DNA of 64,000 nucleotides from Verrucomicrobiales bacterium (GCA_024638765.1 JAHEJT010000004.1:174-64173); one strand, 5' to 3'; counted from the first letter of the stretch, positions 2,891-63,088 are shown. Made by a program: numbers and translations. The notes: generated by a model not told the origin, from the letters alone.

Positions 2891-4552
2891 ACGGCTGCGA
2901 AGCAGCCCCGCTCCCGCCCGGAAGGTGTAGAGATCCGCATCCCGCAGGAAGATCTCCAGCCGAATGACCTCACCCTTCAGTGAATCGAGCTCCTTTCCTC
3001 TCCAGTTTACGGAATGCGATACGCTGTCACCGGAAAAAGGGACACAGTCCGGATAGTCAAATCCCTCGATCGGCTTCCTCCTCGCGTCGCTCACCCGCAC
3101 TTTCAACTCGCCTTCCGAGGCGTCCGCATTCAACACCAGGTCGCCGCCGGGCCAGACGATGGTCCGCGTCGCGACCACCCCGCCCCCACGCGGTCCCCGC
3201 AATGAAATAATCCCTTCCTTGCGCACCGTGGCCAGACCCACCGCCCCATTCCGGTCCGGCGTGCCGTGTGGTCCGTCCCAGCCCGTGTAATAGAGATACC
3301 ACTTGTCGCCCACCTCCACCCACGAAGGGCTCCCGAAGATCATCTCGTCATCCCAGGATCCCTCCGGGCCGTATTCGATCAGCTTGGGCCGGCCTGGCAA
3401 GCGGTCGAACTGAATCCCATCCCGGCTCCAGGCCAGTTCCGTGTAGATGAAATCATTCATCCGGAACGGCTCCAGAAATCCCCAGTAAATCCCCGAGTAA
3501 TACCGCGTCGGCATTCCGTAAAAGAAATTGAAATTCGTTTCGTTGTCCGCCTCATCCGGAATCAGGATCGTTTGAGGCTCACTATCCTCCATCCAATCCG
3601 TCCACAGCGTCCTGCTGTGCATGCGGGCGATCCGCCGGGACGCGCCCGTGTCGAGCATATCCTCACCCCAGGCCCGGTAAATGTGCTTGGCCCGGCAGTA
3701 GAGGACATACTCCGCGCGCGTCGGATCCCAGCACACGGTGTTGGGATGATCGCTGTGCAGCTGCGCAATGCGAGTGTCGCTCGCCACGTCCCAATGGATG
3801 CCATCCCTGGATCCAATCACGCGGATCCCGTTGAGATCCCCGATGCCTCGACCCTTGGCGCGATACATCATCAGGTAACGCCAGCCGCGGCGGTCTTTTT
3901 CGGGGACCTCCAGAAGACATGGCGCACATGACTCCATCTCCGGCCGGTCGAGTCGGCCTATGAGGACATTGTTGGGCGTGCCGCGGTGCCAGGGAAAAAG
4001 GTTCAGATCCGGTTTCTCCCAGTGCACACCGTCCTTGGACTCCGCGTATGCGATGCGCGTCTGGAATTTGCGGCCTTTCATCTTGGCATCCGGCAGGACT
4101 TCCTGGTTCTCATCCGCAATACCCTCGCCACTGACTGGATAGTTCGCCTGGTAATACATGCGGAAGGGACCTGCATCCCCGTCGCGCACCACCCAGAGAT
4201 AACTGGGCTTGTCCCCGGTCATCACCGGGTTAGCTGGATGCTTTTCCGGCTGGTGGAAGATCCTTCGCACCGCTTCCCGCTTGTATTTGATCGCCCAATG
4301 ATTATCGACAATGTACCGGTCGAACACGAACTGAGGTTCCAACCCGATTGCGACCGGTTCCTCGGGAATCCCGGCGCCGTGGAGACTGCCGATCCCGAGC
4401 AGGATCAAGAGGCCGATGCAAAGGAATTTGCTGAAAGTTCCGTGTCCAAGACACGTCCTCAGTCCTCGGCCTCGGAAGTTTTGGCAACTTCCGCTACAGG
4501 CCTCAAATCGCCCGTAGCTGGTAATCTCTGCTTCGCGTCCATTCGCGTCCAT
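2888..4552 (-). CDS. Secreted beta-propeller glycoside-hydrolase-like protein (GH32/43/68/130-type fold is a guess) with a C-terminal beta-sandwich
   Basis: ORF 2888..4600. Signal-like segment FSKFLCIGLLILLGIGSLHGAG. Recurrent propeller-blade-like motifs: AESKDGVHWEKP, GSRDGIHWD, AWSRDGIQFDR, WYLYYTGWDG. The start is uncertain: ATG 4600 overlaps the upstream gene by 35 nt, and ATG 4552 lies inside a 10-bp tandem repeat. Confidence 0.55.
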   Translation of the reverse strand: MDANGREAEITSYGRFEACSGSCQNFRGRGLRTCLGHGTFSKFLCIGLLILLGIGSLHGAGIPEEPVAIGLEPQFVFDRYIVDNHWAIKYKREAVRRIFHQPEKHPANPVMTGDKPSYLWVVRDGDAGPFRMYYQANYPVSGEGIADENQEVLPDAKMKGRKFQTRIAYAESKDGVHWEKPDLNLFPWHRGTPNNVLIGRLDRPEMESCAPCLLEVPEKDRRGWRYLMMYRAKGRGIGDLNGIRVIGSRDGIHWDVASDTRIAQLHSDHPNTVCWDPTRAEYVLYCRAKHIYRAWGEDMLDTGASRRIARMHSRTLWTDWMEDSEPQTILIPDEADNETNFNFFYGMPTRYYSGIYWGFLEPFRMNDFIYTELAWSRDGIQFDRLPGRPKLIEYGPEGSWDDEMIFGSPSWVEVGDKWYLYYTGWDGPHGTPDRNGAVGLATVRKEGIISLRGPRGGGVVATRTIVWPGGDLVLNADASEGELKVRVSDARRKPIEGFDYPDCVPFSGDSVSHSVNWRGKELDSLKGEVIRLEIFLRDADLYTFRAGAGLLRSR

Positions 4553-4553
4553 T
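4532..4553. repeat. Perfect 10-bp tandem repeat TTCGCGTCCA x2.2 (ATTCGCG-N3 phasing) at the 5' end of the GH-like gene
   Basis: Read directly. Same ATTCGYG core and 10-bp period as the array at 55045..55081. Confidence 0.8.
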
Positions 4554-4565
4554 GGCGGTTCTCTT

Positions 4566-7500
4566 TCACTCCAAGCTGTCCAAGAACGCCACCAGGTCAA
4601 TCAACTCCTCCGGCGTCATCGTCTGATCCAGCCCCATCGGCATCAATGACATCCGGCCGGGACGGATCTCTTTAATCGAATCGCGCGGCACCGGCTTCTC
4701 TTCCGCAGCGGCATCGACCAGAAACAGGGTATCGGCAGTCTCGCGCCGAATGATCCCGAAGTGCGTTTGCCCGTCATCTGCGATGATTTCCCAGGGCTCG
4801 AAGTCCCGGGACAAGGTGGTGCTCGGGTAGAGTATCGACTCCAGGAGATCGCGCTTCGTCCGGATCCTGCCGACGCGATTGAGATCCGGGCCCACTTCAC
4901 GGCCCACGTCTCCGATCTTGTGGCAGGTCATGCAGGCGCCCTTCCCCGCGGCAAAAACCTCCTTGCCGCGCGCGGCACTGCCCCTGACGAGCCTGGGCGC
5001 CAACTCCGCGAGCCGCGCTTCCCGGTTCTCGAATTCTTTCTCCAAACGCTCCACCAGCGGTTTGGCCCGGTCGTAAACTTCCGGAGGAAACCGTGTCAAC
5101 GTGCGGCGGAACTCACTGGGCGAGAGTGCGGCGAGCACCTCGGATTCCTCCAACGCCTGCACCATGGCTATTCCCAGTTCCGCGTCCCGCATGCGATCGA
5201 AAACATTGATCAAGAGAGGAAGTTCCATGGGACCCGCGGTCTTCAACAACGGCGCCACCTGCATCCGTTGTTTCATCGTCAATCGCGCACCCGAAAGCAT
5301 GGCGGCAGCCTCCAACCGCTGGGATCCCGCCGCGCCGGGCGCAAGCAATCCCCGGAGCAAATCCAACGCCGCCTGGCTGATGGCCCCGGACCCTTTGGAC
5401 ACCGCAGCCAGGGCATCGATCCGGACCAGGGAAGGCCGCGAATCATCGTCCGCGATGGTACGCAACTGCTCATCGAAACGATCGGTATCGACTTTTTCCA
5501 GGGCGGCGAGCGCACCCCGGAGTAAAGTTTCTTCCTCCGAATCCAGGGCCGATGCGATCCCCCGTTCCCATTGCTGAAACAGAGGGATTTTCTTCGGGCT
5601 CCCCGCGATTATTTCGAAGCCAGTGCCCCTCTTCTTCTGACCCGCGGCACCGACGAATCGCGCCACCAGCGCCTGCATAGCTTTATGTTCCAGATGCAGG
5701 GAAGCCAATTCGGGGAGAATGACCCGTCGGCGCTCGGAGAGCCCGCCCTCGTCCAGCCACCCTTGAAATTCTGCGGCAATCCCGCCGGCCCAATCCGGGC
5801 GTCGCTTGGACACCTCCACTGCCGCGGCGGAGAGCTCGGCGGAAGCCGAGTCAAAGAAAGGCAAGACGTCACCCGCGGCCAACTTGGAAGATTCCATGCC
5901 GTCCAACGCCCAGAGCACACGCCGCTGCACATCCGCGGAGGCGCTTCGCAGTCCGCGCGCGGTGCCTTCGTAATCGTCGATCTCGATCAACGCGTAAATA
6001 GCGGCATGATCCCGGACGCGGTCGTAAGACCGCTCGGCATACTGGAGCAACGCGTCCACTGCCGCGCGATCTCCGATCCGCCCCAGCGCCCGCGCCGCCG
6101 CCATCTGCACCGCGGGCGATTCATCCTCGAGCAGCAGTTTTATCAGCGGCGCGACGGCTTCCCGGTCCCGTGTCTTCCAAATGCCGTTGCACGCCGTGTG
6201 CCGGAGGGAAGGGTGCGCATCTCCCAGCGCCCGCCGGATCACGGCGTTGGCCGCATCCGATCCGATCCGCGTCGCAGCCCAGACCGCGTTGCGCCGCGCC
6301 CCGACGGATTGCGAGCCGAGCGCTTTATTTAGTGCCGGGACACTGGCGTCTCCCCGCGCCGCCAGCTCCAGAATAGCACGGTCCCGCACCGCGAAGCGCG
6401 CGTCATCCAGCAGGCCGGCGAGCTCTTCGAAAGCAGCCTGTCCCCAATCAATCTGCAATCCGCGCGGGTCGTCCTTGAAATCCACAAGTCCGGCGTTGCG
6501 CACCCGGTAAATCGCGCCGGGGATTTCCGGCTTCGCGATCTGGGAAGTGGGACAACCGTTGCGAAACCATCCGCCGGTGTCGATCACCAGCAGGGTGCCG
6601 TCGGCGTCCTCGAGGACATCGGTCAAATGGGAGTCTGGATCGTCGATCACCAGGAAATCCTCGGTGCGCGCGTGCGAGAATGTCCCGCCTGCCGCTTCCA
6701 CGGTGGTCCGGGTGATTTTGTGAGTGTTGAAATGGGAGGTGAAAATCAGCCATTGATCATTAAACAAGGCGGCGCGCTTGAATCCGGGCACCGCTCCGTC
6801 GGTGATGGAATGCCGGTACCGGGTCATCCCGGAAATCGCGACATGCCCGAAGTTATAAAACTCCGGCAGAAGATCGCCGGTGCGCGTAAACTCCTCCAAG
6901 ACGGCTTCCTGATCGTAGCGCGGGTAAGCCCCGCCGTATTGCCAGTGGACCAGGGTGTCGCCGCGCGGTCGCCCGTACATGAGATTGACGCTCCCGACGA
7001 TCTCGCCCTCGGGCGTGAAATCGATTTCCACGGGATTATCCATGCCGCCCCCGGCGTAGATCTGGACGTCGCCCCCGTCGGGCGCGCACGACCATATGCG
7101 CGCGCCTTTCCCTTTGTGAATGAGATTGCCATCACGGTCGTGGACATCGAGGTCCTTGCGGCCGTGCACCCAGAAAATCCGTCCGTTCGGATGGAGAAAC
7201 GGGCCGTGAAGGTCCGCGGCGTTTCCCGTGTACCCGAAGCCCGTAACAATTTCCTGGCGCACATCCGCGACGCCGTCGTCATCGGTATCCTCCAGGCGCC
7301 AAATGGACGGCGCCGCAGTCACCCAGAGCGCCCCGTCATGCCAGAGCGCCCCCGAAGGAAAGGTCAGCTTGTCGGCGAAAATCTTGGACTTGTCGAAGAG
7401 ACCGTCGCCATTGGTGTCCTCCAGCAGGCGAATGAAATTCGGTTTCTCTGCATCCAGTTCCTCCGCTTTGCGATTCACGCCCGCGGCCTCCGCCACGAAG

Positions 7501-9140
7501 AGGCGGCCGCGATCGTCGAAATTAGCCATCATGGGATGACGCGTCAGCGGCGGCGCGGCCGCCACCTCCGCCACCAATCCCTCCGGCAACGTCATGGGCG
7601 GGACGTCCACTTCCGGATCCATGACCTGGGGTATCGGCCCGCGGCCTTCCTTGGCGCGATCGATGTGGCGTTGCTTCGACTCCTCGTCAAACCAGAAAAG
7701 CCGCGTCTGCGATCCGCCGCCGTTCCAGAGATCGTATTTCGCCAAGGCATGCTCCGCGAAAAAGGCGTCGACCTTTTCCTTCAACGCAGCCTGCCGGTCC
7801 GCCAACGCTTCGTCGCCCGCCAGGTTCCGCCTTTCTCCCGGATCCTCCACGAGATGATACAGCTCCTCGTGCTCCTCACCGCGTCGTTCGACGTATTTCC
7901 AGTCCTCGGTCCGCACGCAGCGCAGCCCCTCGTATTCGTAATAGACCTCGTCCTCCCAATCCGGCACCGCCTCTCCCTGCAGCACCGCAGAAAAATCGCG
8001 CCCCGGCAGTTTCGGCTCGGTCGGCTTTCGCGCCTCCAGTCCCAAATAGCCGAGCACCGAAGGCAAAAAATCGTAATTGCTCACCATGATGTCGCTCACC
8101 CTCCCGCCGGGAATGCCGGGCGCGGATTGTGCACGGTCGGCGCGATGCCGGAAAATCATGGGGATATGCATGGAGAACTCGCGCGCGTTGACCGGGCGCG
8201 TGTGATCACCCATGCCCCAGAGCCCGTGCTGACCCCCCGCCCAGCCCTGGTCCGCCGCGAAAATCACCAGGGTGTCCCCGGCGATACCGCAGTCCTCCAG
8301 TTTCTGCATGACCGCGCCGACCCCGTCATCGACCGCGCTCAACTCCTCGCCGTAGCGGCGCATGCTGGTGAGATTGCCGAAGTACTCCCGGTTGGACTGT
8401 TGCCAGGGGTGGATGGCCCCGCGCGGAAATGAGTGCATCGGTTTATCCGCGTAATAAGCCGCGTGCCGGTTGCCGGAGGACTCCAGCTGGTAGCGGCTCA
8501 ACCCGTAAGGACCGTTGAACGCAAGATAGAGAAAAAAGGGGCCGTCCTTATTTGAATCAATAAATTTGCACGCGTGCTCGGTCCACAGATCCGTCAGGTA
8601 AGTCGGCTCCACTCGGGTCTCACCATTTTCGATGACGCGCGCGCCGTGAAAGGTGCTCGTCCCGCCGTGCGGCATCGTGATCCAGTAATCGTCGAGTCCT
8701 TCCTGGGGTGATTCGTTGGCGCCCAGGTGCCACTTTCCCACCAGCCCGCACTTGTATCCCTCGGCCTTGAGAATTTCCGGGAGCGAGGTGAACTCTTCGA
8801 GGCTATTGCGAGCTTCCGGTCCCGTCTGCAGCCTGCCGCCCGAAAGAAAGTTATGCACCCCGTGCTGTGACGGCATCAGCCCGGTGAGATAGGTCGCACG
8901 TGTCGGCGAACAGACGGCATTATTGCAGAAGGCGCGTGAGAAGCGCACGCCTTCCGCCGCCAGTTTGTCGATGTGGGGCGTCTTGATATCCGGATTCCCG
9001 TAACACCCCAGGGTCCAGGCCCCGTGGTTGTCGGTGAGGATAAAGACGACGTTGGTTTTGACGGCAGAAAAAGAATTAGAACCGCAGATGGCGCAGATGG
9101 CACAGATAATAGAGGGAAGATGTGGAGGTCTTTTTCTCAT
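4566..9140 (-). CDS. Giant fusion protein: Cys-type sulfatase + PVC 'membrane-bound dehydrogenase' beta-propeller + HEAT repeats + C-terminal c-type haem domain
   Basis: ORF 4566..9308 trimmed to ATG 9140 (signal peptide MRKRPPHLPSIICAICAICGSNSFSA). Sulfatase motifs VVFILTDNHG, CSPTRATYLTG and GKWHLG. The propeller begins near PLTRHPMMANFDDRGRLFVAEA. HEAT-like repeats follow (SPAVQMAAARALGRIGD etc.). CMTCH haem motif near the C-terminus. Confidence 0.85.
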   Translation of the reverse strand: MRKRPPHLPSIICAICAICGSNSFSAVKTNVVFILTDNHGAWTLGCYGNPDIKTPHIDKLAAEGVRFSRAFCNNAVCSPTRATYLTGLMPSQHGVHNFLSGGRLQTGPEARNSLEEFTSLPEILKAEGYKCGLVGKWHLGANESPQEGLDDYWITMPHGGTSTFHGARVIENGETRVEPTYLTDLWTEHACKFIDSNKDGPFFLYLAFNGPYGLSRYQLESSGNRHAAYYADKPMHSFPRGAIHPWQQSNREYFGNLTSMRRYGEELSAVDDGVGAVMQKLEDCGIAGDTLVIFAADQGWAGGQHGLWGMGDHTRPVNAREFSMHIPMIFRHRADRAQSAPGIPGGRVSDIMVSNYDFLPSVLGYLGLEARKPTEPKLPGRDFSAVLQGEAVPDWEDEVYYEYEGLRCVRTEDWKYVERRGEEHEELYHLVEDPGERRNLAGDEALADRQAALKEKVDAFFAEHALAKYDLWNGGGSQTRLFWFDEESKQRHIDRAKEGRGPIPQVMDPEVDVPPMTLPEGLVAEVAAAPPLTRHPMMANFDDRGRLFVAEAAGVNRKAEELDAEKPNFIRLLEDTNGDGLFDKSKIFADKLTFPSGALWHDGALWVTAAPSIWRLEDTDDDGVADVRQEIVTGFGYTGNAADLHGPFLHPNGRIFWVHGRKDLDVHDRDGNLIHKGKGARIWSCAPDGGDVQIYAGGGMDNPVEIDFTPEGEIVGSVNLMYGRPRGDTLVHWQYGGAYPRYDQEAVLEEFTRTGDLLPEFYNFGHVAISGMTRYRHSITDGAVPGFKRAALFNDQWLIFTSHFNTHKITRTTVEAAGGTFSHARTEDFLVIDDPDSHLTDVLEDADGTLLVIDTGGWFRNGCPTSQIAKPEIPGAIYRVRNAGLVDFKDDPRGLQIDWGQAAFEELAGLLDDARFAVRDRAILELAARGDASVPALNKALGSQSVGARRNAVWAATRIGSDAANAVIRRALGDAHPSLRHTACNGIWKTRDREAVAPLIKLLLEDESPAVQMAAARALGRIGDRAAVDALLQYAERSYDRVRDHAAIYALIEIDDYEGTARGLRSASADVQRRVLWALDGMESSKLAAGDVLPFFDSASAELSAAAVEVSKRRPDWAGGIAAEFQGWLDEGGLSERRRVILPELASLHLEHKAMQALVARFVGAAGQKKRGTGFEIIAGSPKKIPLFQQWERGIASALDSEEETLLRGALAALEKVDTDRFDEQLRTIADDDSRPSLVRIDALAAVSKGSGAISQAALDLLRGLLAPGAAGSQRLEAAAMLSGARLTMKQRMQVAPLLKTAGPMELPLLINVFDRMRDAELGIAMVQALEESEVLAALSPSEFRRTLTRFPPEVYDRAKPLVERLEKEFENREARLAELAPRLVRGSAARGKEVFAAGKGACMTCHKIGDVGREVGPDLNRVGRIRTKRDLLESILYPSTTLSRDFEPWEIIADDGQTHFGIIRRETADTLFLVDAAAEEKPVPRDSIKEIRPGRMSLMPMGLDQTMTPEELIDLVAFLDSLE

Positions 9141-9278
9141 AAGTGAAGTTTGGACATTGCACATTGAACTTACAATGTCGAAGATCCAACGACGGTGTCT
9201 CTTCCAAAACGGTAAACGGATGAAACGGGGTCCAGCTTTCATTTTATCTATCTGCGCCATCTGCGCCATCTGCGGTTC
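9079..9278. repeat. 29-nt inverted repeat (arms 9079..9107 and 9250..9278, 1 mismatch); each arm is about 3 copies of the 9-mer ATCTGCGCC and encodes ICAICAICGS in a sulfatase signal peptide
   Basis: The reverse complement of 9079..9107 is ATCTGTGCCATCTGCGCCATCTGCGGTTC. 9250..9278 is ATCTGCGCCATCTGCGCCATCTGCGGTTC. Confidence 0.95.
9153..9179. promoter_or_regulatory. Heptamer motif GACATTG CACATTG -N6- CAATGTC in the 79-bp divergent sulfatase intergenic region; candidate operator
   Basis: Read directly: a tandem pair plus an inverted copy, centred between start codons 9140 (-) and 9220 (+). The function is inferred only. Confidence 0.35.
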
Positions 9279-10563
9279 AAAATCCGAGGCGGCACGACGG
9301 CCCAACATCCTCTTCCTGATCGCCGACGACCTCGGTTGGGCGGACGTGGGGTATCACGGCTCGGAAATCGATACCCCGCGCATCGACTCCCTTGCACGCG
9401 CCGGCGTGATCCTGGAACAGCATTATGTCACCCCGATGTGCAGCTCCACGAGAGCTTGCCTGCTTAGCGGACGTTATTCCACCCGCTTCGGACTCGACAG
9501 CGCCACCAACTCCCAGGTCTTTCCCTTCGGCACCGTGACCCTGGCTTCGGCGCTGCAATCAATGGGGTACCATACCGGTCTCACCGGCAAGTGGCATCTC
9601 GGCTCACAGCCGGTGACCGGCCCGCGCAAATTCGGGTTCACGCGCTCGCACGGAGCCTTCGCGGGCGGTGTCGATCAATACACGCACCTCTACAAAAAGG
9701 GCCCATACCAGAAGACCTGGCATCGCAACGACGTCCATATCGACGAAGAAGGCCATGCCACCGATCTTTTCGCGCGCGAAGCGATACGGTGGATCGAAGA
9801 CTCCGCCGAAGCCTCCGACAGGCGACCCTGGTATATCCAGGTCGCCTTTACCGCGGTCCATATCCCCATCCAGGAACCGGAGCAGTGGGTCGAGCCTTAC
9901 AAAGACCGCATCGAAAACGAATCACGGCGCCGCTTTGCAGCCTGCGCCGCCCACATGGATCACGCCATTGGGGAAATCGTCGACGCGCTCGCGCGGACGG
10001 GGCAGGAGGAGGACACCCTCATTATCTTCACTTCGGATAACGGCGGCTCCGGTCCCTGGAAACCCTCAGGACTCTACCCCGGCACTTACGCACCCTGCCC
10101 GGTCCTCGGCAACAATCTCCCGCTGCGCGGCGGTAAGGGCACCGTTTACGAAGGCGGGATTCGCGTGCCGGCGTTCGCCCACTGGCCCGGGATCCTGCAG
10201 CCGGGTAAATTGCACCATCCCATCCACGTGGTCGACTGGATGCCGACGCTCCTGAATTTGGCGGGCTGGGAATCGGAAGAAGATCTGCAATGGGACGGAC
10301 GGGATGTCTGGCCGCTGCTCACGGGCGCGGAAAAATTTCCCGAATCGCGTGTGCTCTACTTCAAGCGCGGCCGGAATTATGCATTACGCAAGGGGCGATG
10401 GAAGCTGGTGCAATCGGGGTCGGAGCGGGTGGAGCTCTTCAACCTCGATAAAGATCCTAATGAAGAGGACGACCTTTCCCGGCAAGACGCTTACCTGACC
10501 CGCGTCGATCAGCTCACCGCCTTGCTCGAGGAGCAGCGGCGGCTTGATGGAGGGGAGAAGTGA
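9220..10563 (+). CDS. Arylsulfatase (Cys-type, variant CSSTR motif)
   Basis: ORF 9028..10563 trimmed to ATG 9220 (signal peptide MKRGPAFILSICAICAICGSKSEA). ILFLIADDLGW, MCSSTRACLLSGR, GKWHLG, FTSDNGG. Confidence 0.9.
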   Translation: MKRGPAFILSICAICAICGSKSEAARRPNILFLIADDLGWADVGYHGSEIDTPRIDSLARAGVILEQHYVTPMCSSTRACLLSGRYSTRFGLDSATNSQVFPFGTVTLASALQSMGYHTGLTGKWHLGSQPVTGPRKFGFTRSHGAFAGGVDQYTHLYKKGPYQKTWHRNDVHIDEEGHATDLFAREAIRWIEDSAEASDRRPWYIQVAFTAVHIPIQEPEQWVEPYKDRIENESRRRFAACAAHMDHAIGEIVDALARTGQEEDTLIIFTSDNGGSGPWKPSGLYPGTYAPCPVLGNNLPLRGGKGTVYEGGIRVPAFAHWPGILQPGKLHHPIHVVDWMPTLLNLAGWESEEDLQWDGRDVWPLLTGAEKFPESRVLYFKRGRNYALRKGRWKLVQSGSERVELFNLDKDPNEEDDLSRQDAYLTRVDQLTALLEEQRRLDGGEK

Positions 10564-53237: not shown

Positions 53238-55031
53238 TCACTTCCCTCCCGTGGAGTCCACTTTCCGCAACCAGATCCCATTGAGCCGCATCAACTCATC
53301 CCCCGGCACTTCCACGGCTTCCGCCACGAGCAAAACCCGGCCCTCGGCCAGTTGCAACGTCCCCACCTTCTGCCTTCGAAACACTTCCGGCGTCGCCGTC
53401 GCCCGCACGCGGTGCTCGACGAAATTTCCGTCCGCGGAAATTCGCAGTAATCCCCCCGCATCACTGAATCGGCAGCCGTATCGAATGAGGATCTCGTATT
53501 CGCCTCCGCCCCGGACATCCAGGTTCCATTCGGCTCTCTCTCCCGGCGATTTCCAACCCTCGATCGTGTCCCAGTCATACCCCTGGAAATTGTATTCAAT
53601 CGCGTCCCCGTGCCAGGTCGCCCAGCTCGCTTGAATCTCGACCGGGTTCTCCTCCGGATGACCCACCGGCACGGCAATGGGGCGGTATTCCACCCCCTGC
53701 GTCACTTCCTTAAACCACCGAAGGAACTCTTCGCGCAATCTTTGCACGGTCTCTGGATTCTTTTTTGCGATGTTCGTTTCTTCTGAAGAATCTTTTTCAA
53801 GATCGAAGAGCATCCACTTTGCGGGATCCGGCGTCCCGCCGGTCCCCACCTGGCCCAGCAATTTGTAGCGTTGATCGCTGATCGACCAGCGGTTGTCCGG
53901 GTTCGGAACATACCGGTCCCAGGTGTGATACACATAATCGTGGTGCTTTTTCCCTTTCCCCGCCACCAGCAACGAAAGGAGACTCACGCCGTCGAACTCC
54001 CGGTCCGTGGGCAAATCGACGCCTGCAAGTTCGCAGAGAGTCGGCATGATATCGACGTGCCAAGCCTGGCCGGAGACCACTCCCCCCGCAGGAAACTTGC
54101 CGGGCCAACGCACGAACAGCGGACTCCGCACGCCGCCTTCGTAGACTTGGGCTTTGTTCCCGCGGATGCCTGCCTTGAAAAATTTGCTGACCCCTCCGTT
54201 GTCGCTCATGAACAACACCACGGTGTCTTCTTGCAGGTCGAGCTCCTCGAGCCGGGCCAGGATCCGGCCGATGTTCACGTCGACCCGGTCGACCAGCGAA
54301 TAAATGCGGGCCTCGCGCAGAGGCAGTCCGCGCCCCAGGTATTTCTCGAGGATCTTGTCCCCTTCCGGCTGCCCGTAATGCGAGGTATCGAGAATCCACG
54401 GCGAGTGCGGCGCGTTAAAAGCCAGCACGCAGAAAAAGGGATCCTTGCCGCTCTCCGCGATGAAATCCCCGGCGGCATCTGTGAACAAATCGCTGACATA
54501 ACCCCGGGCCTCCACCGGCCTGCCATTCTCGACGATCTGATCGGGAAACTCGTATCTCTCCATGTGTCCGTGGTAATGCCCGAGGAACCGGTCAAATCCC
54601 CGTTGGTCGGGTTGATACCCGTAATACTTCCCGAGGTGCCACTTGCCGAATAATCCCGTCCGGTATCCGGCTTTTTTCAGAAGCTGGGCCACCGTGATCT
54701 CGCCGATCCCAAGGGTATCCCCGCCGAAACGCGTGTTGTAGAGCCCGGTCCGCAGGTAATAGCGTCCGGTCATCAATCCCGCCCGCGTCGGGGCGCACAC
54801 CGGTGCCGCGTAAAATCGCGAAAAGCGCACGCCCTCCCTTGCCAATCGATCCATGTGCGGCGTGTCGATGTGGGGATTTCCGGAGACACCCGTGTCCCAC
54901 ACCCCTTGGTCATCCGTGATGATGAGGAGAACGTTCGGCTTGGAACCGCACAGATCCTCGGCGCGAGCGATCGACGCGGAAGCAATGCCTAGAGCTGAGA
55001 AAAGAATCCCGACGCTTAGACGGAAATACAT
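53238..55031 (-). CDS. Arylsulfatase (Cys-type) with a C-terminal beta-sandwich-like extension
   Basis: ORF 53238..55157 trimmed to ATG 55031 (MYFRLSVGILFSALGIASASIARA). LLIITDDQG, CAPTRAGLMTGRY, GKWHLG, MSDNGG. Confidence 0.9.
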   Translation of the reverse strand: MYFRLSVGILFSALGIASASIARAEDLCGSKPNVLLIITDDQGVWDTGVSGNPHIDTPHMDRLAREGVRFSRFYAAPVCAPTRAGLMTGRYYLRTGLYNTRFGGDTLGIGEITVAQLLKKAGYRTGLFGKWHLGKYYGYQPDQRGFDRFLGHYHGHMERYEFPDQIVENGRPVEARGYVSDLFTDAAGDFIAESGKDPFFCVLAFNAPHSPWILDTSHYGQPEGDKILEKYLGRGLPLREARIYSLVDRVDVNIGRILARLEELDLQEDTVVLFMSDNGGVSKFFKAGIRGNKAQVYEGGVRSPLFVRWPGKFPAGGVVSGQAWHVDIMPTLCELAGVDLPTDREFDGVSLLSLLVAGKGKKHHDYVYHTWDRYVPNPDNRWSISDQRYKLLGQVGTGGTPDPAKWMLFDLEKDSSEETNIAKKNPETVQRLREEFLRWFKEVTQGVEYRPIAVPVGHPEENPVEIQASWATWHGDAIEYNFQGYDWDTIEGWKSPGERAEWNLDVRGGGEYEILIRYGCRFSDAGGLLRISADGNFVEHRVRATATPEVFRRQKVGTLQLAEGRVLLVAEAVEVPGDELMRLNGIWLRKVDSTGGK

Positions 55032-55044
55032 CACGCCTGTCCTG

Positions 55045-55132
55045 ATTCGCGCTAATTCGTGCTCATTCGTGTTCATTCGTGTCAGAAAATCTTTAAACAC
55101 GAATTTTACGAATTCCACGAATGGCCACGAAT
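55045..55132. repeat. Inverted arrays of the heptamer ATTCGYG / CACGAAT (4 + 4 copies, 9-10-bp phasing) in the 5' leader of the sulfatase gene
   Basis: ATTCGCG, ATTCGTG, ATTCGTG, ATTCGTG start at 55045, 55055, 55065 and 55075. CACGAAT, TACGAAT, CACGAAT, CACGAAT start at 55098, 55107, 55116 and 55126. Confidence 0.9.
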
Positions 55133-55170
55133 AAAAAGAGGCTCCCCGCGCCAGCAAATCCCAATAACGA

Positions 55171-56142
55171 TTAACGAATCACCCCCTCCACATCCAGGAT
55201 CTGGGAGTTCGGCACCGAATTTCCGAAGGTCTCGAATTGATCGAAGGTCCACACCACCTTCTTCGTCCTCGGCTCGATCTCCACCAGCAACGGATTCTCC
55301 GGCCCGGCGTGGCAATTCCCGATGACATAATTCCCATTGGGCAACACTTCGAGCGTCGTGACCCAGGCGAACTGAATCTCCTCCAGGTCGTCCTGGTGCA
55401 GCTCCCAGACGATCTCTTTTGCGGGCGTCACTTCGATGACACTGTGCCCGTTCCCCGTGGCAATGACGGTGTTTCCGGTGGGCAACCGCAGGGCGCTGAA
55501 GCACTGGTTGCCGAATCCCTCGACCCCATGCCCCTTGGCCGGTTCCTTTCCGAACATCGGCACCTCGTATTCCCAGACCACTTTACCGGTCTCGCCGTGG
55601 TATTCGCGCACCTTGCCGTCGCCCTCATGGCAAACCAGGTAATTCCCGTTGGCAATTTTTCTCACCAGGCGCGTGTCCCGGTGTGGGTGCGGATCATCGA
55701 TCACGAGCTTGATCGTCTTCTGAATCTCTCCCTCGCGATTGATCTCGATGATCCTGCCCGCGCCGCTCTCGGCGATCATGATGTGACCGTCCCCAAGGGG
55801 CTGAAAGGCGTGCACCTCGATCTTTTTTCCCTGGTTGCCGTTCATCGTGGCGCTGTCGTAACTCCAGACCACCTTTTTGGTCGCGGGATCGATCTCCACC
55901 ACCTTGCGCATTTTTTCCTGCACCATGATGTGCCCGTCCGGCAGGACGTGGATATCGTGAATGCCGCCCCAGGGCATCTCCCACTCGATCTTGCCGCCGG
56001 CATCGACAATCGCCAGCTTGCCGTTGCCGCCGGTGATGAGGCGGTGTCCGGCGGCAGCGGGAAGAATTCCCGTCAAAAGAAAAACGAGGATCAGCACCGG
56101 AGCCGGAAATCTGAAAAGGCGCGGCAACGAAAATACATGCAT
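55171..56142 (-). CDS. Secreted beta-propeller repeat protein (PQQ/BamB-like fold is a guess)
   Basis: ORF 55171..56538 trimmed to ATG 56142 (MHVFSLPRLFRFPAPVLILVFLLTGILPAAAG). Repeated blade-like segments (GKIEWEM, KKVVWSY, GKVVWEY, KEIVWEL, KKVVWTF). Confidence 0.65.
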   Translation of the reverse strand: MHVFSLPRLFRFPAPVLILVFLLTGILPAAAGHRLITGGNGKLAIVDAGGKIEWEMPWGGIHDIHVLPDGHIMVQEKMRKVVEIDPATKKVVWSYDSATMNGNQGKKIEVHAFQPLGDGHIMIAESGAGRIIEINREGEIQKTIKLVIDDPHPHRDTRLVRKIANGNYLVCHEGDGKVREYHGETGKVVWEYEVPMFGKEPAKGHGVEGFGNQCFSALRLPTGNTVIATGNGHSVIEVTPAKEIVWELHQDDLEEIQFAWVTTLEVLPNGNYVIGNCHAGPENPLLVEIEPRTKKVVWTFDQFETFGNSVPNSQILDVEGVIR

Positions 56143-61711: not shown

Positions 61712-63088
61712 ATGCAAATCGAAAATCATAAATCGGAAATCGAAAATTCTCCGGCTCTCCCCCGCCGCGATTTCATGCGCGGCGCCGCCGCAGCGGCCGT
61801 CGGAGGCGCCCTCACGAAAGTCGCCATCCCCCGCGTCCACGCCGCCGGCAGCGACGAACTCAAAATCGCCCTCATCGGGTGCGGCGGCCGCGGCACCGGC
61901 GCCTGTGTCCAGGCCTTGAGCACCGATGGGCCCGTCAAACTCTGGGCCATGGCCGACGCCTTCCCGGACAGCCTCGAGAAGAGCCATCAAAATCTTCTCA
62001 AGGGCGCTTCCTTCAGCCGTTCGGAAGATGCCGGACCGCAGACCAGCAAGATGGACGTCCCGCCGGAACGCCGCTTCGTCGGCCTGGACGCTTACCGCAA
62101 AGTGATGGCGCTCGAGGAAATTGACGTCGTCCTCATCACCGGACCTCCCGGCTTCCGCCCGATCCATTTTGACGCTGCCGTCAAAGCCGGCAAACACGTC
62201 TTCATGGAAAAGCCCGTCGCCGTCGATGCGCCGGGCATTCGAAAAGTCCTCGCGACCGCCGCGAAAGCGAAAAAGAAAAACCTCAAGGTCGGCGTGGGCC
62301 TGCAGCGCCGTCACAGCCCCCTCTACCGCGAGTGGATCCAACGCGTCCAAGCAGGTGAAATCGGCCGCATCATTACAGAACGCATCTATTACCTCGGCCG
62401 CGGTGTCGGCAAGTATTACGCACGTAGTCCCGAGGATACAGAACTCGAATACCAGATCCGCAACTGGTATTACTTCACCTGGCTTAGCGGCGATCACATT
62501 GTCGAGCAGCAGATCCACCAGTTCGATGTGGCCTGCTGGATGAAAGACCAGTATCCCGTGTCCGCCCAGGGTCAAGGTGGCCGAGAAGTCCGCACCGGAA
62601 ATGATTACGGCCAGATTTACGATCATCACAACGTGGATTTTACTTTCGCTGACGGCACCCACCTCATTACCCAATGCCGCCACATTCCCGGCTGCTGGAA
62701 TCACCAGGGCGAATACGTCGATGGAAGCAAAGGCACCGGTGCAATGATCTCGAAACGGGCGGCAACTCTCCGCCTCTGGGAACAGGAACAACCGTTCTGG
62801 CGCGACACGCTCGAAGAAAATCCTTACCAGATCGAACACGACGACCTCTTTGCGGCGATCCGCAACGATAGGCCTTATAATGAAGCCGAATACGGCGCAA
62901 AAAGCAGCATGGCCGCCATTCTCGGGCGCATGGCCACTTACTCCGGGAAAGTTGTCACCTGGGATCAAGCCATAAATTCGGATGTGTCTCTCGGCACCGA
63001 CGCCGAGCGTTTCGACGCCCCCGCGCCCATCCAACCCGGCGATGGAGACTATTACCCCGTCGCAATCCCAGGATCTACGGAAGTGTGA
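61712..63088 (+). CDS. TAT-exported Gfo/Idh/MocA-family oxidoreductase
   Basis: RRDFMRGAAAAAVGG twin-arginine signal. Rossmann motif IALIGCGGRG. FMEKP. Confidence 0.85.
   Translation: MQIENHKSEIENSPALPRRDFMRGAAAAAVGGALTKVAIPRVHAAGSDELKIALIGCGGRGTGACVQALSTDGPVKLWAMADAFPDSLEKSHQNLLKGASFSRSEDAGPQTSKMDVPPERRFVGLDAYRKVMALEEIDVVLITGPPGFRPIHFDAAVKAGKHVFMEKPVAVDAPGIRKVLATAAKAKKKNLKVGVGLQRRHSPLYREWIQRVQAGEIGRIITERIYYLGRGVGKYYARSPEDTELEYQIRNWYYFTWLSGDHIVEQQIHQFDVACWMKDQYPVSAQGQGGREVRTGNDYGQIYDHHNVDFTFADGTHLITQCRHIPGCWNHQGEYVDGSKGTGAMISKRAATLRLWEQEQPFWRDTLEENPYQIEHDDLFAAIRNDRPYNEAEYGAKSSMAAILGRMATYSGKVVTWDQAINSDVSLGTDAERFDAPAPIQPGDGDYYPVAIPGSTEV

What the first reader, a model, noticed from the sequence alone, without database searches (positions are those of the whole stretch)
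55045..55132. Eight phased copies of ATTCGYG/CACGAAT forming inverted arrays in a sulfatase leader, with the same repeat at the GH-like gene 5' end
Four ATTCG(C/T)G units at exactly 10-bp spacing (55045-55081) face four (C/T)ACGAAT units at 9-10-bp spacing (55098-55132) across a 16-nt AT-rich centre. The array ends 13 nt upstream of sulfatase ATG 55031. In the mRNA this could fold into a long segmented hairpin next to the start codon. In DNA the helical phasing would put all sites on one face, as for a cooperative regulator. The same ATTCGCG-N3 decamer occurs as a perfect x2.2 tandem at 4532..4553, over the candidate start of the GH-like gene. Together with the 9-mer repeat at the other two sulfatases, all four sulfatase or GH-like secreted-enzyme genes in this window (the three sulfatase genes and the GH-like gene) carry short tandem repeats at their 5' ends.
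Basis: seen in the sequence. Interest (0 to 1): 0.6.

Follow-up and report, generated by a model that had tools for sequence, protein, structure and literature searches.

The report
Dispersed heptamer-array palindromic repeat copy
The eight phased ATTCGYG/CACGAAT words in front of this sulfatase gene are one gene-less copy of a repeat family scattered through the genome and tied to a small uncharacterised nuclease gene, so they are probably not a dedicated sulfatase switch, although in this genome such repeats do pile up at the starts of sulfatase genes.

Summary
Four ATTCGYG units at 10-bp spacing (55045-55081) face four (C/T)ACGAAT units (55098-55132) across a 16-nt AT-rich centre, and the array ends 13 nt before the sulfatase ATG.

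It is not a local operator. The genome holds 37 such ATTCGYG clusters, all intergenic. About 277 phased arms of the wider form hTNNGYG (h = A, C or T) are present, against 40 in a reversed-sequence control.

Arms of the same kind bracket GxxExxY (PF13366, PD-(D/E)XK) genes here and in related Verrucomicrobiales. ATTCGTG arms do so in three relatives, and the protein tree follows arm type. At one orthologous site the gene has been internally deleted, leaving a gene-less element.

The window copy has a tail-to-tail topology that is rare elsewhere (3 of 301 phylum genomes). Eleven such copies in this genome align over their full length, so they form one copied family.

ATTCGYG arms also lie next to aroE, tyrS, aroC and pdxJ. 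The spacers of the two arms are not complementary.

Most of that signal comes from 9-bp-period arms that encode signal-peptide cores.

Best reading: a REPIN- or Ssn/NTS-like non-autonomous repeat whose effects on the messenger are incidental.

The parts
55045..55081 (+). Left arm: four ATTCG(C/T)G heptamers at an exact 10-bp period, with 3-nt spacers cta, ctc, ttc.
   Evidence: Aligns unit for unit with ten other copies in the genome.
55082..55097 (.). 16-nt AT-rich centre (tcagaaaatctttaaa). It is the loop of the potential hairpin and the shared 'tail' side of both arms.
   Evidence: Centres of the 11 tail-to-tail copies resemble each other more than shuffled versions do (score 6.6 against 5.36, sd 0.19).
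55098..55132 (-). Right arm: CACGAAT, TACGAAT, CACGAAT, CACGAAT on the + strand (ATTCGTG/ATTCGTA read on the - strand), spacings 9, 9, 10.
55032..55044 (-). 13-nt gap between the array and the sulfatase start. On the - strand it reads CAGGACAGGCGTG and holds an AGGA Shine-Dalgarno-like motif, which the predicted fold partly pairs with the CCUCUUUU stretch 5' of the array.
   Evidence: The functional reading is inference only.
53238..55031 (-). Sulfatase gene (PF00884 plus SGSH_C) with an ordinary signal peptide that is not repeat-derived.
   Evidence: translation of the sequence.
55171..56097 (-). Upstream same-strand gene (PQQ_2 / beta-propeller-like). Its stop lies 38 nt from the array. No sigma-70-like promoter or intrinsic terminator was found in the 139-nt spacer.
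4531..4560 (+). Solo arm of the same family: cTTCGCG tcc ATTCGCG tcc ATTGGCG followed by GTT.
9083..9274 (.). Head-to-head (T2) element of the same superfamily: CGCAGAT x3 (9083-9107), a 142-nt interior, then ATCTGCG x3 (9250-9274). Each arm encodes the ICAICAICG core of a sulfatase signal peptide.

Best explanation
The array is a gene-less, roughly 90-bp copy of a dispersed intergenic repeat family. Each arm of such an element is a run of 3-4 heptamers of the form hTNNGYG (h = A, C or T; here ATTCGYG) phased at 9-10 bp, and the two arms are inverted.

Shown here:
- The family has 37 ATTCGYG clusters and about 277 arms in this genome.
- Arms of the same build, including ATTCGTG arms in three relatives, bracket the small GxxExxY nuclease gene (PF13366 / TIGR04256, Cas4 / lambda-exonuclease-like PD-(D/E)XK core).
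- The nuclease phylogeny follows arm type.
- Gene-less elements arise by internal deletion of the gene.
- The eleven tail-to-tail copies in this genome are homologous over their whole length.

Inferred:
- The phased heptamers are recognition sites that line up cognate GxxExxY protein on one DNA face, or on a folded single strand, and this underlies copying or maintenance of the repeats. The analogues are REPINs with RAYT and NTS repeats with Ssn.
- In this genome the ATTCGYG subfamily is probably orphaned. The only GxxExxY gene of the matching clade (contig C76) carries an in-frame TAG.
- The copy in front of the sulfatase was tolerated in a 139-nt spacer between two same-strand genes. If transcribed, it forms a -43 kcal/mol segmented hairpin ending beside the ribosome-binding site. 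That could change mRNA stability or translation as REP elements do, but as a side effect and not as a dedicated control device.
For: Dispersed family:
- 37 clusters, all intergenic.
- 277 arms against 40 in the reversed-sequence control.
- ATTCGYG-N3 x3 occurs in 18 of 41 Verrucomicrobiales genomes at 0-34 matches per genome; the control pattern gave 0.

Link to GxxExxY:
- 5 of 6 PF13366 genes in this genome are flanked by inverted phased arms.
- L039 and L038 carry CACGAAT x3 - gene - ATTCGTG x3; L040 has ATTCGCG elements on both sides of the gene.
- genomes with PF13366 hold ATTCGYG arrays in 17 of 31 cases, genomes without it in 1 of 10 (p 0.025).
- the protein tree groups by arm type across families f1, f4, f5, f6 (94/94 support for the clade with ATTCGYG/ATCTGYG-type arms, 9-10-bp period).
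- at the orthologous site in G039 the same arms enclose an internally deleted gene.
- TIGR04256 at E 1e-37; model pLDDT 86; best folds are Cas4 SSO0001 (4ic1) and lambda exonuclease.

Copied as a unit:
- full-length alignment of 11 tail-to-tail copies. Four share a GCGAAGCGAAT insert at the same position, and the centres are similar (z about 6.6).

Not a regulon:
- housekeeping neighbours; orientation 73 against 59; no array at homologous sulfatases.

Not selected as a perfect hairpin:
- cores 169/196 identical between arms, spacers 4/30.
- some copies pair arms of different cores.

Other:
- No Rfam family. No promoter or terminator consensus.
Against: - No movement, target-site duplication or filled/empty site was seen for the tail-to-tail form. 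No close relative of this genome is available: genus g1 holds only this genome, and exact-protein look-ups found nothing.
- The window copy has the opposite topology (ATTCGYG, centre, CRCGAAT) to the usual gene-bearing elements (CRCGAAT, gene, ATTCGYG). Its derivation from them is therefore not shown. Only L040 and L050 place a gene between arm tails.
- No GxxExxY gene with ATTCGYG arms exists in this 93%-complete assembly.
- A gene-bearing element sits at the same site in three genomes whose neighbouring protein is 74-75% identical. That argues for long vertical persistence, not frequent mobility.
- Arms are significantly enriched at sulfatase genes that are only distantly related. A purely neutral, selfish model does not predict this.
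- Binding or cutting of the arrays by GxxExxY is untested.
Confidence: 0.62

Rival explanations
1. Operator array. The phased direct repeats are cooperative binding sites for a transcription factor, for example an OmpR/PhoB-type response regulator that reads direct repeats at a 10-11-bp period, and this factor controls sulfatase and other polysaccharide-degradation genes.
For: - Exact 10-bp phasing places the units on one helical face.
- Only heptamers and phase are conserved, not the spacers.
- Arms are enriched at sulfatase genes (odds ratio 5.8) and at a second expanded family of 38 members (odds ratio 4.3).
- Arm density upstream of sulfatases is twice the background per kb (18 against 8.6 expected, p 0.003).
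Against: - The same ATTCGYG arms adjoin aroE, tyrS, aroC, pdxJ, acpS, an Fe-S assembly gene and a permease.
- Distance to the start codon ranges from 8 to more than 200 nt, and orientation is near random.
- Divergent (promoter-rich) spacers are not enriched: 35 against 46 expected.
- Copy number ranges from 0 to 34 among genera of one order.
- Homologous sulfatase loci lack the array.
- Arms flank GxxExxY genes, and whole tail-to-tail units are homologous copies.
- Many other heptamer cores share the same architecture.
Confidence: 0.08
2. Dedicated RNA element. The inverted arrays are selected as a leader or intercistronic hairpin that sets sulfatase translation or protects the upstream messenger, or is cut out by RNase III like an intervening sequence.
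For: - Strong predicted hairpin (-42.9 kcal/mol, z -4.0) ending 13 nt from the ATG, with the AGGA motif partly paired.
- All 15 tail-to-tail copies fold (z -2.6 to -7.8).
- Arms prefer same-strand (operon-like) spacers: 132 against 105 expected.
Against: - Pairing is limited to the 7-nt cores. Spacers are not complementary (4/30) and there is no compensatory pattern.
- Some copies pair arms of different cores (C266 ATTCGTG with ATCTGCG, C229), giving weak folds.
- Most arms are solo and cannot form the hairpin.
- Tail-to-tail copies occur in both orientations relative to transcription.
- No Rfam match. No U-tract terminator.
Confidence: 0.1
3. Host-serving nuclease target, like Ssn/NTS. The arrays are genome-wide recognition sites for a site-specific GxxExxY nuclease that acts on single-stranded or hairpin DNA, for example during uptake, recombination or repair. 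On this reading they are not the ends of a selfish mobile element.
For: - The layout matches the published Ssn system: a small nuclease gene flanked by its own hairpin-forming repeats, which occur in hundreds of copies near genes (PMC11893778).
- Nuclease and arm type co-vary.
- One locus has persisted at the same site in three genomes whose neighbouring protein is 74-75% identical.
Against: - The nuclease belongs to a different superfamily (PD-(D/E)XK, not GIY-YIG).
- In this genome the matching clade is represented only by a gene with an in-frame stop.
- Many unrelated unit sequences coexist in each genome, which looks more like competing element lineages than one host system.
- No functional data.
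Confidence: 0.15
4. Contingency locus. The tandem units slip during replication and switch sulfatase expression on and off (phase variation).
For: - Tandem 10-bp units lie next to a start codon.
- A relative (G017) has runs of at least 12 perfect ATTCGCGTCC copies.
Against: - The units here differ in their spacers (cta, ctc, ttc; tt, tc, ggc), so they slip poorly.
- Unit number is nearly fixed at 3-4 per arm across loci and genomes.
- The arrays lie outside promoter hexamer spacers.
Confidence: 0.03

Closest known systems
REP / BIME elements and REPINs with their RAYT (Y1 HUH) transposase
   Same: Short non-coding palindromic repeats in tens to hundreds of intergenic copies. They occur singly or as inverted doublets, often between co-directional genes. 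The associated gene is itself flanked by the repeats (the L040 and L050 layout). REPs have known incidental effects on mRNA stability and translation.
   Different: Each arm here is a run of 3-4 direct heptamers at a 9-10-bp period, not a single imperfect palindrome. The associated protein is a roughly 125-aa PD-(D/E)XK (GxxExxY), not a Y1 HUH enzyme. Many unrelated unit sequences coexist per genome. No mobility has been demonstrated.
Ssn nucleases and their NTS/SRM repeats (Chenal et al. 2025, PMC11893778)
   Same: A small nuclease gene is framed by copies of a hairpin-forming repeat that is also dispersed in hundreds of copies around genes. Nuclease and repeat variants co-vary across taxa.
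   Different: Ssn is GIY-YIG and cuts single-stranded DNA at one defined motif. Here the protein is PD-(D/E)XK, the repeat is a phased multi-unit array, and no activity is known.
Bacterial MITEs (for example Correia elements)
   Same: Gene-less derivatives with inverted ends. A derivative made by internal deletion of the gene was seen at an orthologous site (L058 against L039). Insertion next to genes has possible expression effects.
   Different: No transposase of a known family. No clear target-site duplication: the ends read TTAA-CC...GG-TTAA, which is self-palindromic and so ambiguous. The window copy has its arms tail-to-tail, the reverse of the gene-bearing topology.
OmpR/PhoB-family operators (direct repeats at 10-11 bp, for example ompF/ompC, pho and tor boxes; from general knowledge)
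   Same: Heptamer-scale direct repeats phased by one helical turn, in several adjacent copies.
   Different: No coherent regulon, no fixed promoter distance, orientation-independent, flank a nuclease gene, very uneven copy number among genera.
Four-helix-bundle (PF05635, 23S rRNA IVS protein) cassettes with inverted heptamer arrays, and the TAACTGA / STRR heptamer repeats (MacGregor 2015, PMC4679880)
   Same: A parallel system in the same genome: a small gene bracketed by inverted arrays of short tandem units, a different unit for each copy, plus many gene-less arrays in spacers next to start codons.
   Different: Period 7 with no spacer, and a different protein family. The window array is period 10 and belongs to the GxxExxY class.

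Membership tests
GxxExxY-associated phased heptamer-array elements (a class recognised only in this scan's earlier notes, not in print) | Arms made of 3 or more hTNNGYG-type heptamers at a 9-10-bp period | tested here: met
   4+4 units at period 9-10.
GxxExxY-associated phased heptamer-array elements (a class recognised only in this scan's earlier notes, not in print) | Arms with the same heptamer core bracket PF13366/TIGR04256 genes | tested here: met
   L039 and L038 (ATTCGTG) and L040 (ATTCGCG) in relatives. In this genome 5 of 6 genes are flanked, but by other cores.
GxxExxY-associated phased heptamer-array elements (a class recognised only in this scan's earlier notes, not in print) | Same arm topology as the gene-bearing element (CRCGAAT ... 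ATTCGYG, heads inward) | tested here: not met
   The window copy reads ATTCGYG, centre, CRCGAAT (tails inward). That form occurs in 3 of 301 phylum genomes, against 24 of 301 for the usual form.
REPIN / RAYT | Dispersed intergenic palindromic doublets, with the associated gene flanked by them | tested here: met
REPIN / RAYT | Associated Y1 HUH (RAYT) transposase | tested here: not met
   The flanked gene is PF13366, a PD-(D/E)XK. RAYT itself was not searched for.
MITE | Derived from a gene-bearing element by internal deletion | tested here: inconclusive
   Shown for a head-to-head element at an orthologous site (L058 against L039). Not shown for the tail-to-tail form.
MITE | Target-site duplication and presence/absence among close strains | not testable with these tools
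   No close relative is available. The TTAA at the ends is self-palindromic.
Ssn / SRM system | GIY-YIG nuclease that cuts ssDNA at its flanking repeat | tested here: not met
   The protein is PD-(D/E)XK. Cleavage cannot be tested here.
OmpR/PhoB-type operator | Sites confined to a functionally coherent regulon at a fixed promoter geometry | tested here: not met
Intrinsic terminator | GC-rich stem followed by a U tract | tested here: not met
   none found. The hairpin is followed by CAGGACAGG.
Any Rfam RNA family | Covariance-model match | tested here: not met
   only a chance snoRNA hit at E 0.64.

The most novel reading that the evidence does not exclude
GxxExxY nucleases and their helically phased heptamer arrays form an undescribed class of nuclease-plus-repeat system, parallel to RAYT/REPIN and Ssn/NTS, in which each nuclease clade reads its own heptamer. 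In this verrucomicrobial lineage the repeats have taken on a new tail-to-tail hairpin form that was copied as a unit. They are also repeatedly recruited at the 5' ends of sulfatase genes, as leaders and as ready-made hydrophobic cores of signal peptides, so a selfish repeat shapes the export and expression of the organism's largest enzyme family.
Probability: 0.35. Interest if true: 0.75.

Novelty: new variant of a known kind. Interest (0 to 1): 0.55.

Why it matters
If the link holds, a very large family of small proteins of unknown function gets a concrete, testable substrate. That family is PF13366, listed as 'Unknown' in the 2012 PD-(D/E)XK survey (PMC3424549). A type of phased repeat that looks like a regulator's operator would then be explained as a dispersed element, which should stop it being mis-annotated as a regulon.

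For this organism it shows how repeat DNA accumulates at, and is partly built into, the 5' ends of its 164 sulfatase-like genes. Sequence-specific small nucleases with cognate multi-site arrays could also be useful as tools, as Ssn has been.

Tried and rejected
- **Local sulfatase operator.** Rejected after the genome-wide scan and the neighbour annotation.
- **Conservation upstream of homologous sulfatases.** 25 loci at up to 68% identity; none carries the array.
- **Sigma-70 promoter or intrinsic terminator in the spacer.** None found.
- **Known RNA family.** None.
- **DNA-uptake-sequence-like signal.** Rejected, because the heptamer is not over-represented overall.
- **Fold-back duplication as the origin of the two arms.** Rejected, because the spacers differ and some copies have arms of different cores.
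- **Enrichment at sulfatases as an artefact of recent gene duplication.** Rejected; the genes involved are at most 36-43% identical.
- **Enrichment explained by longer upstream spacers.** Only partly; density per kb is still twice the background.
- **Strain-level filled/empty sites.** Exact-protein look-ups found nothing.
- **Literature.** No paper in the held library links GxxExxY/PF13366 to repeats.
- **First detector for heptamer arrays around PF05635 genes.** Too strict; replaced by an alignment-based test.
- **Gene calls.** Gene calls outside the window are my own crude codon-usage caller. Start-codon distances are therefore approximate.

Full report
**1. The observation**

The sequence is as described.
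- 55045-55081 reads ATTCGCG cta ATTCGTG ctc ATTCGTG ttc ATTCGTG, an exact 10-bp period.
- 55082-55097 is the AT-rich centre tcagaaaatctttaaa.
- 55098-55132 reads CACGAAT tt TACGAAT tc CACGAAT ggc CACGAAT, with spacings 9, 9 and 10.

TRF finds both arrays. The array lies in a 139-nt spacer between two (-) strand genes. Upstream is a PQQ_2 / beta-propeller-like gene that ends at 55171. Downstream is a sulfatase (PF00884, E 3e-56) whose ATG at 55031 starts a normal signal peptide.

The heptamer is not over-represented in the window: 30 matches against 30.6 expected. The signal is the clustering and the phasing.

**2. It is one copy of a genome-wide family**

The assembly is 5.43 Mb in 309 contigs at 60% GC, from an uncultured Verrucomicrobiales bacterium. 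The affiliation rests: the closest sulfatase homologues come mainly from Verrucomicrobiales/Verrucomicrobiia MAGs, and earlier notes on this genome name that order. The genome holds 37 clusters of three or more ATTCGYG within 40 bp, and every one is intergenic.

A broader detector chained hTNNGYG units (h = A, C or T) at 9-11 bp and required three or more units. It finds 277 arms, against 40 in the reversed sequence, and 218 of the arms are intergenic. The commonest cores are:

| Core | Arms |
|---|---|
| ATTCGCG | 29 |
| TTTCGCG | 26 |
| CTCTGCG | 26 |
| ATTCGTG | 25 |
| ATCTGCG | 23 |

ATTCGYG arms are strictly of period 10, and TTTCGCG arms are of period 9.

An arm has polarity. Its units are followed by (G)GTT and an A-rich 'tail'. 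Adjacent arms occur in three arrangements:
- Tails inward (T1): 13 cases, with centres of 15-37 nt plus one outlier of 372 nt. The window copy is of this kind.
- Heads inward (T2): 27 cases, with a modal interior of 75-108 nt.
- Direct: 23 cases.

The 4531-4560 repeat is a solo arm. The 9083-9274 repeat is a T2 element.

**3. Link to a nuclease gene**

Earlier notes of this scan pointed to GxxExxY genes, and I tested that lead here. The genome has six PF13366 genes. Five are bracketed by inverted phased arms, each locus with its own core.

PF13366 occurs in 31 of 41 related genomes. The flanks of 20 such genes show the same build:
- ATTCGTG arms around the gene in L039 and L038.
- ATTCGCG elements on both sides of the gene in L040.
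- Genes flanked by complete gene-less elements in L040 and L050, a REPIN-RAYT-like layout in which the gene lies between arm tails.

Genomes with PF13366 have ATTCGYG arrays in 17 of 31 cases, and genomes without it in 1 of 10 (p 0.025).

A maximum-likelihood tree of 25 proteins groups them by arm type and not by genome. One clade (94/94 support) unites the genes with ATTCGYG, ATCTGYG or ATCCGTG arms (9-10-bp period) from four families.

At the site orthologous to L039, genome G039 keeps both arms but only the two ends of the gene. Gene-less elements therefore arise by internal deletion.

The protein matches TIGR04256 and has no sequence relative in the PDB. It models confidently (pLDDT 86) as a minimal PD-(D/E)XK core closest to Cas4 SSO0001 and lambda exonuclease. 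The literature lists the family's function as unknown, and I found no paper linking it to repeats.

**4. The window copy is a special form**

Its tails-inward topology is the reverse of the usual gene-bearing element. I sampled 301 genomes of the phylum.
- The T1 pattern occurs in 3 genomes, with 10 matches in this one.
- The T2 pattern occurs in 24 genomes of 17 genera, and not at all in this one for ATTCGYG with short centres.

Family-level relatives G016 and G024 have 4+4 pairs in both topologies.

The 11 ATTCGYG T1 copies of this genome align over their whole length in one orientation. Four share a GCGAAGCGAAT insert at the same place, and the centres resemble each other more than shuffles do. 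T1 is therefore a copied unit and not a chance meeting of two arms.

No GxxExxY gene with ATTCGYG arms exists in this assembly. The only member of the matching clade (C76) has an in-frame TAG. This subfamily may be orphaned here.

**5.

*RNA hairpin.* The (-) strand RNA folds at -42.9 kcal/mol (z -4.0), and all 15 T1 copies fold. But only the heptamer cores pair. Cores are 169/196 identical between arms while spacers are 4/30. Some copies join arms of different cores, and most arms are solo.

*Operator.* The phasing is real. But ATTCGYG arms adjoin aroE, tyrS, aroC, pdxJ, acpS, an Fe-S assembly gene and an ABC permease. Distances to start codons vary widely. In same-strand spacers orientation is 73 against 59. 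Divergent spacers are not enriched: same-strand 132, divergent 35 and convergent 12, against 105, 46 and 28 expected.

No promoter or terminator consensus and no Rfam family were found.

**6. The sulfatase association is real**

| Test | Sulfatase-like genes | Comparison | Odds ratio | p |
|---|---|---|---|---|
| Any arm within -250..+100 of the start | 25 of 164 | 145 of 4165 (all genes) | 5.8 | 1.7e-10 |
| Sense arm inside the first 100 nt of the CDS | 10 of 164 | 5 of 4001 (other genes) | 52 | 1.7e-11 |
| Arm wholly upstream | 14 of 164 | 104 of 4001 (other genes) | 3.5 | 2e-4 |
| ATTCGYG arm only | 5 of 164 | 40 of 4001 (other genes) | 3.1 | 0.03 |

The strongest part of the signal is 9-bp-period arms lying in sense inside signal-peptide codons. 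They translate to ICVICVICG, LCVLCVLCG and ICAICAICG. Per kb of upstream spacer, arm density at sulfatases is twice the background.

The sulfatases involved are distant paralogues, so these were independent events. A second expanded family of 38 members is also enriched, while ABC ATPases are not. Crudely predicted signal-peptide genes as a whole are not enriched.

I read this as preferential retention or recruitment of the repeats at these genes. The cause is unexplained, and it is the main point against a purely neutral model.

**7. Verdict**

The array is a gene-less member of a dispersed, nuclease-associated repeat family. In behaviour it is closest to REP/REPIN-RAYT and to the Ssn/NTS system, but its phased multi-heptamer arms and its PD-(D/E)XK partner are not described in print.

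Recognition of the heptamers by GxxExxY, and any copying mechanism, are inferred and not shown. Any effect on the sulfatase messenger is likely to be incidental.

Noticed in passing
Genome contigs outside the window (e.g. C157:18803-19117, C130:1681-2001, C294:1250-1570, C76:26593-26889); window period-7 arrays at 2574-2597, 2862-2892, 61716-61747: The genome has 13 PF05635 (23S rRNA IVS / four-helix-bundle) genes above the family's cut-off. 11 of the 13 are flanked by inverted repeats scoring above the 95th percentile of control genes, and 8 score above the 99th. Nearly all of these repeats are period-7 arrays, with a different heptamer for each copy. This probably accounts for the roughly 800 intergenic period-7 tandem repeats in the genome. 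One copy uses TAACTGA, the heptamer described in Beggiatoaceae and cyanobacteria (PMC4679880). Earlier notes of this scan describe the same cassette in other phyla.
   Followed up: partly
Ten sulfatase genes genome-wide, including window 9220-10563 (+) and 4566-9140 (-): 9-bp-period arms (ATCTGCG, CTCTGCG, CTTTGCG, TTTCGCG) lie in frame inside signal-peptide codons and encode the hydrophobic core (ICVICVICG, LCVLCVLCG, ICAICAICG). In several cases the start codon lies in the interior of a head-to-head element (e.g. C266:38581, C171:1683). The ten genes are at most 36% identical, so these were independent recruitments.
   Followed up: partly
window 55163-55183: Three heptamers AATAACG ATTAACG AATCACC overlap the TAA stop of the propeller gene (55171-55173). 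They resemble the TTAACGA-type arms that flank a PF05635 gene on contig C130.
   Followed up: no
G017:C23:49967-50093 and G017:C93:14599-14715 (relative): Runs of at least 12 perfect ATTCGCGTCC decamers, far longer than the usual 3-4 units. These may be slippage-expanded arms.
   Followed up: no
Genome contig C295:12858-13205: The only GxxExxY gene without flanking arms also lacks the (D/E)xK motif: it has VRVM where the others have VELK. It sits on a long branch in the tree and may be an inactivated or domesticated copy.
   Followed up: no
Genome-wide paralogue families: A 38-member family (example C135:11728-12984, with a twin-arginine-like N-terminus) also shows arms at its 5' ends more often than expected: 5 of 38, odds ratio 4.3, p 0.0095.
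   Followed up: no
L038 (G007:C423) against L039 (G035:C124): A contig of a genome labelled as the window's family carries a locus whose neighbouring protein is 75% identical to one from another family, with the same GxxExxY insertion. No other genome of that family has this neighbouring gene. The contig may be mis-binned or horizontally acquired.
   Followed up: no
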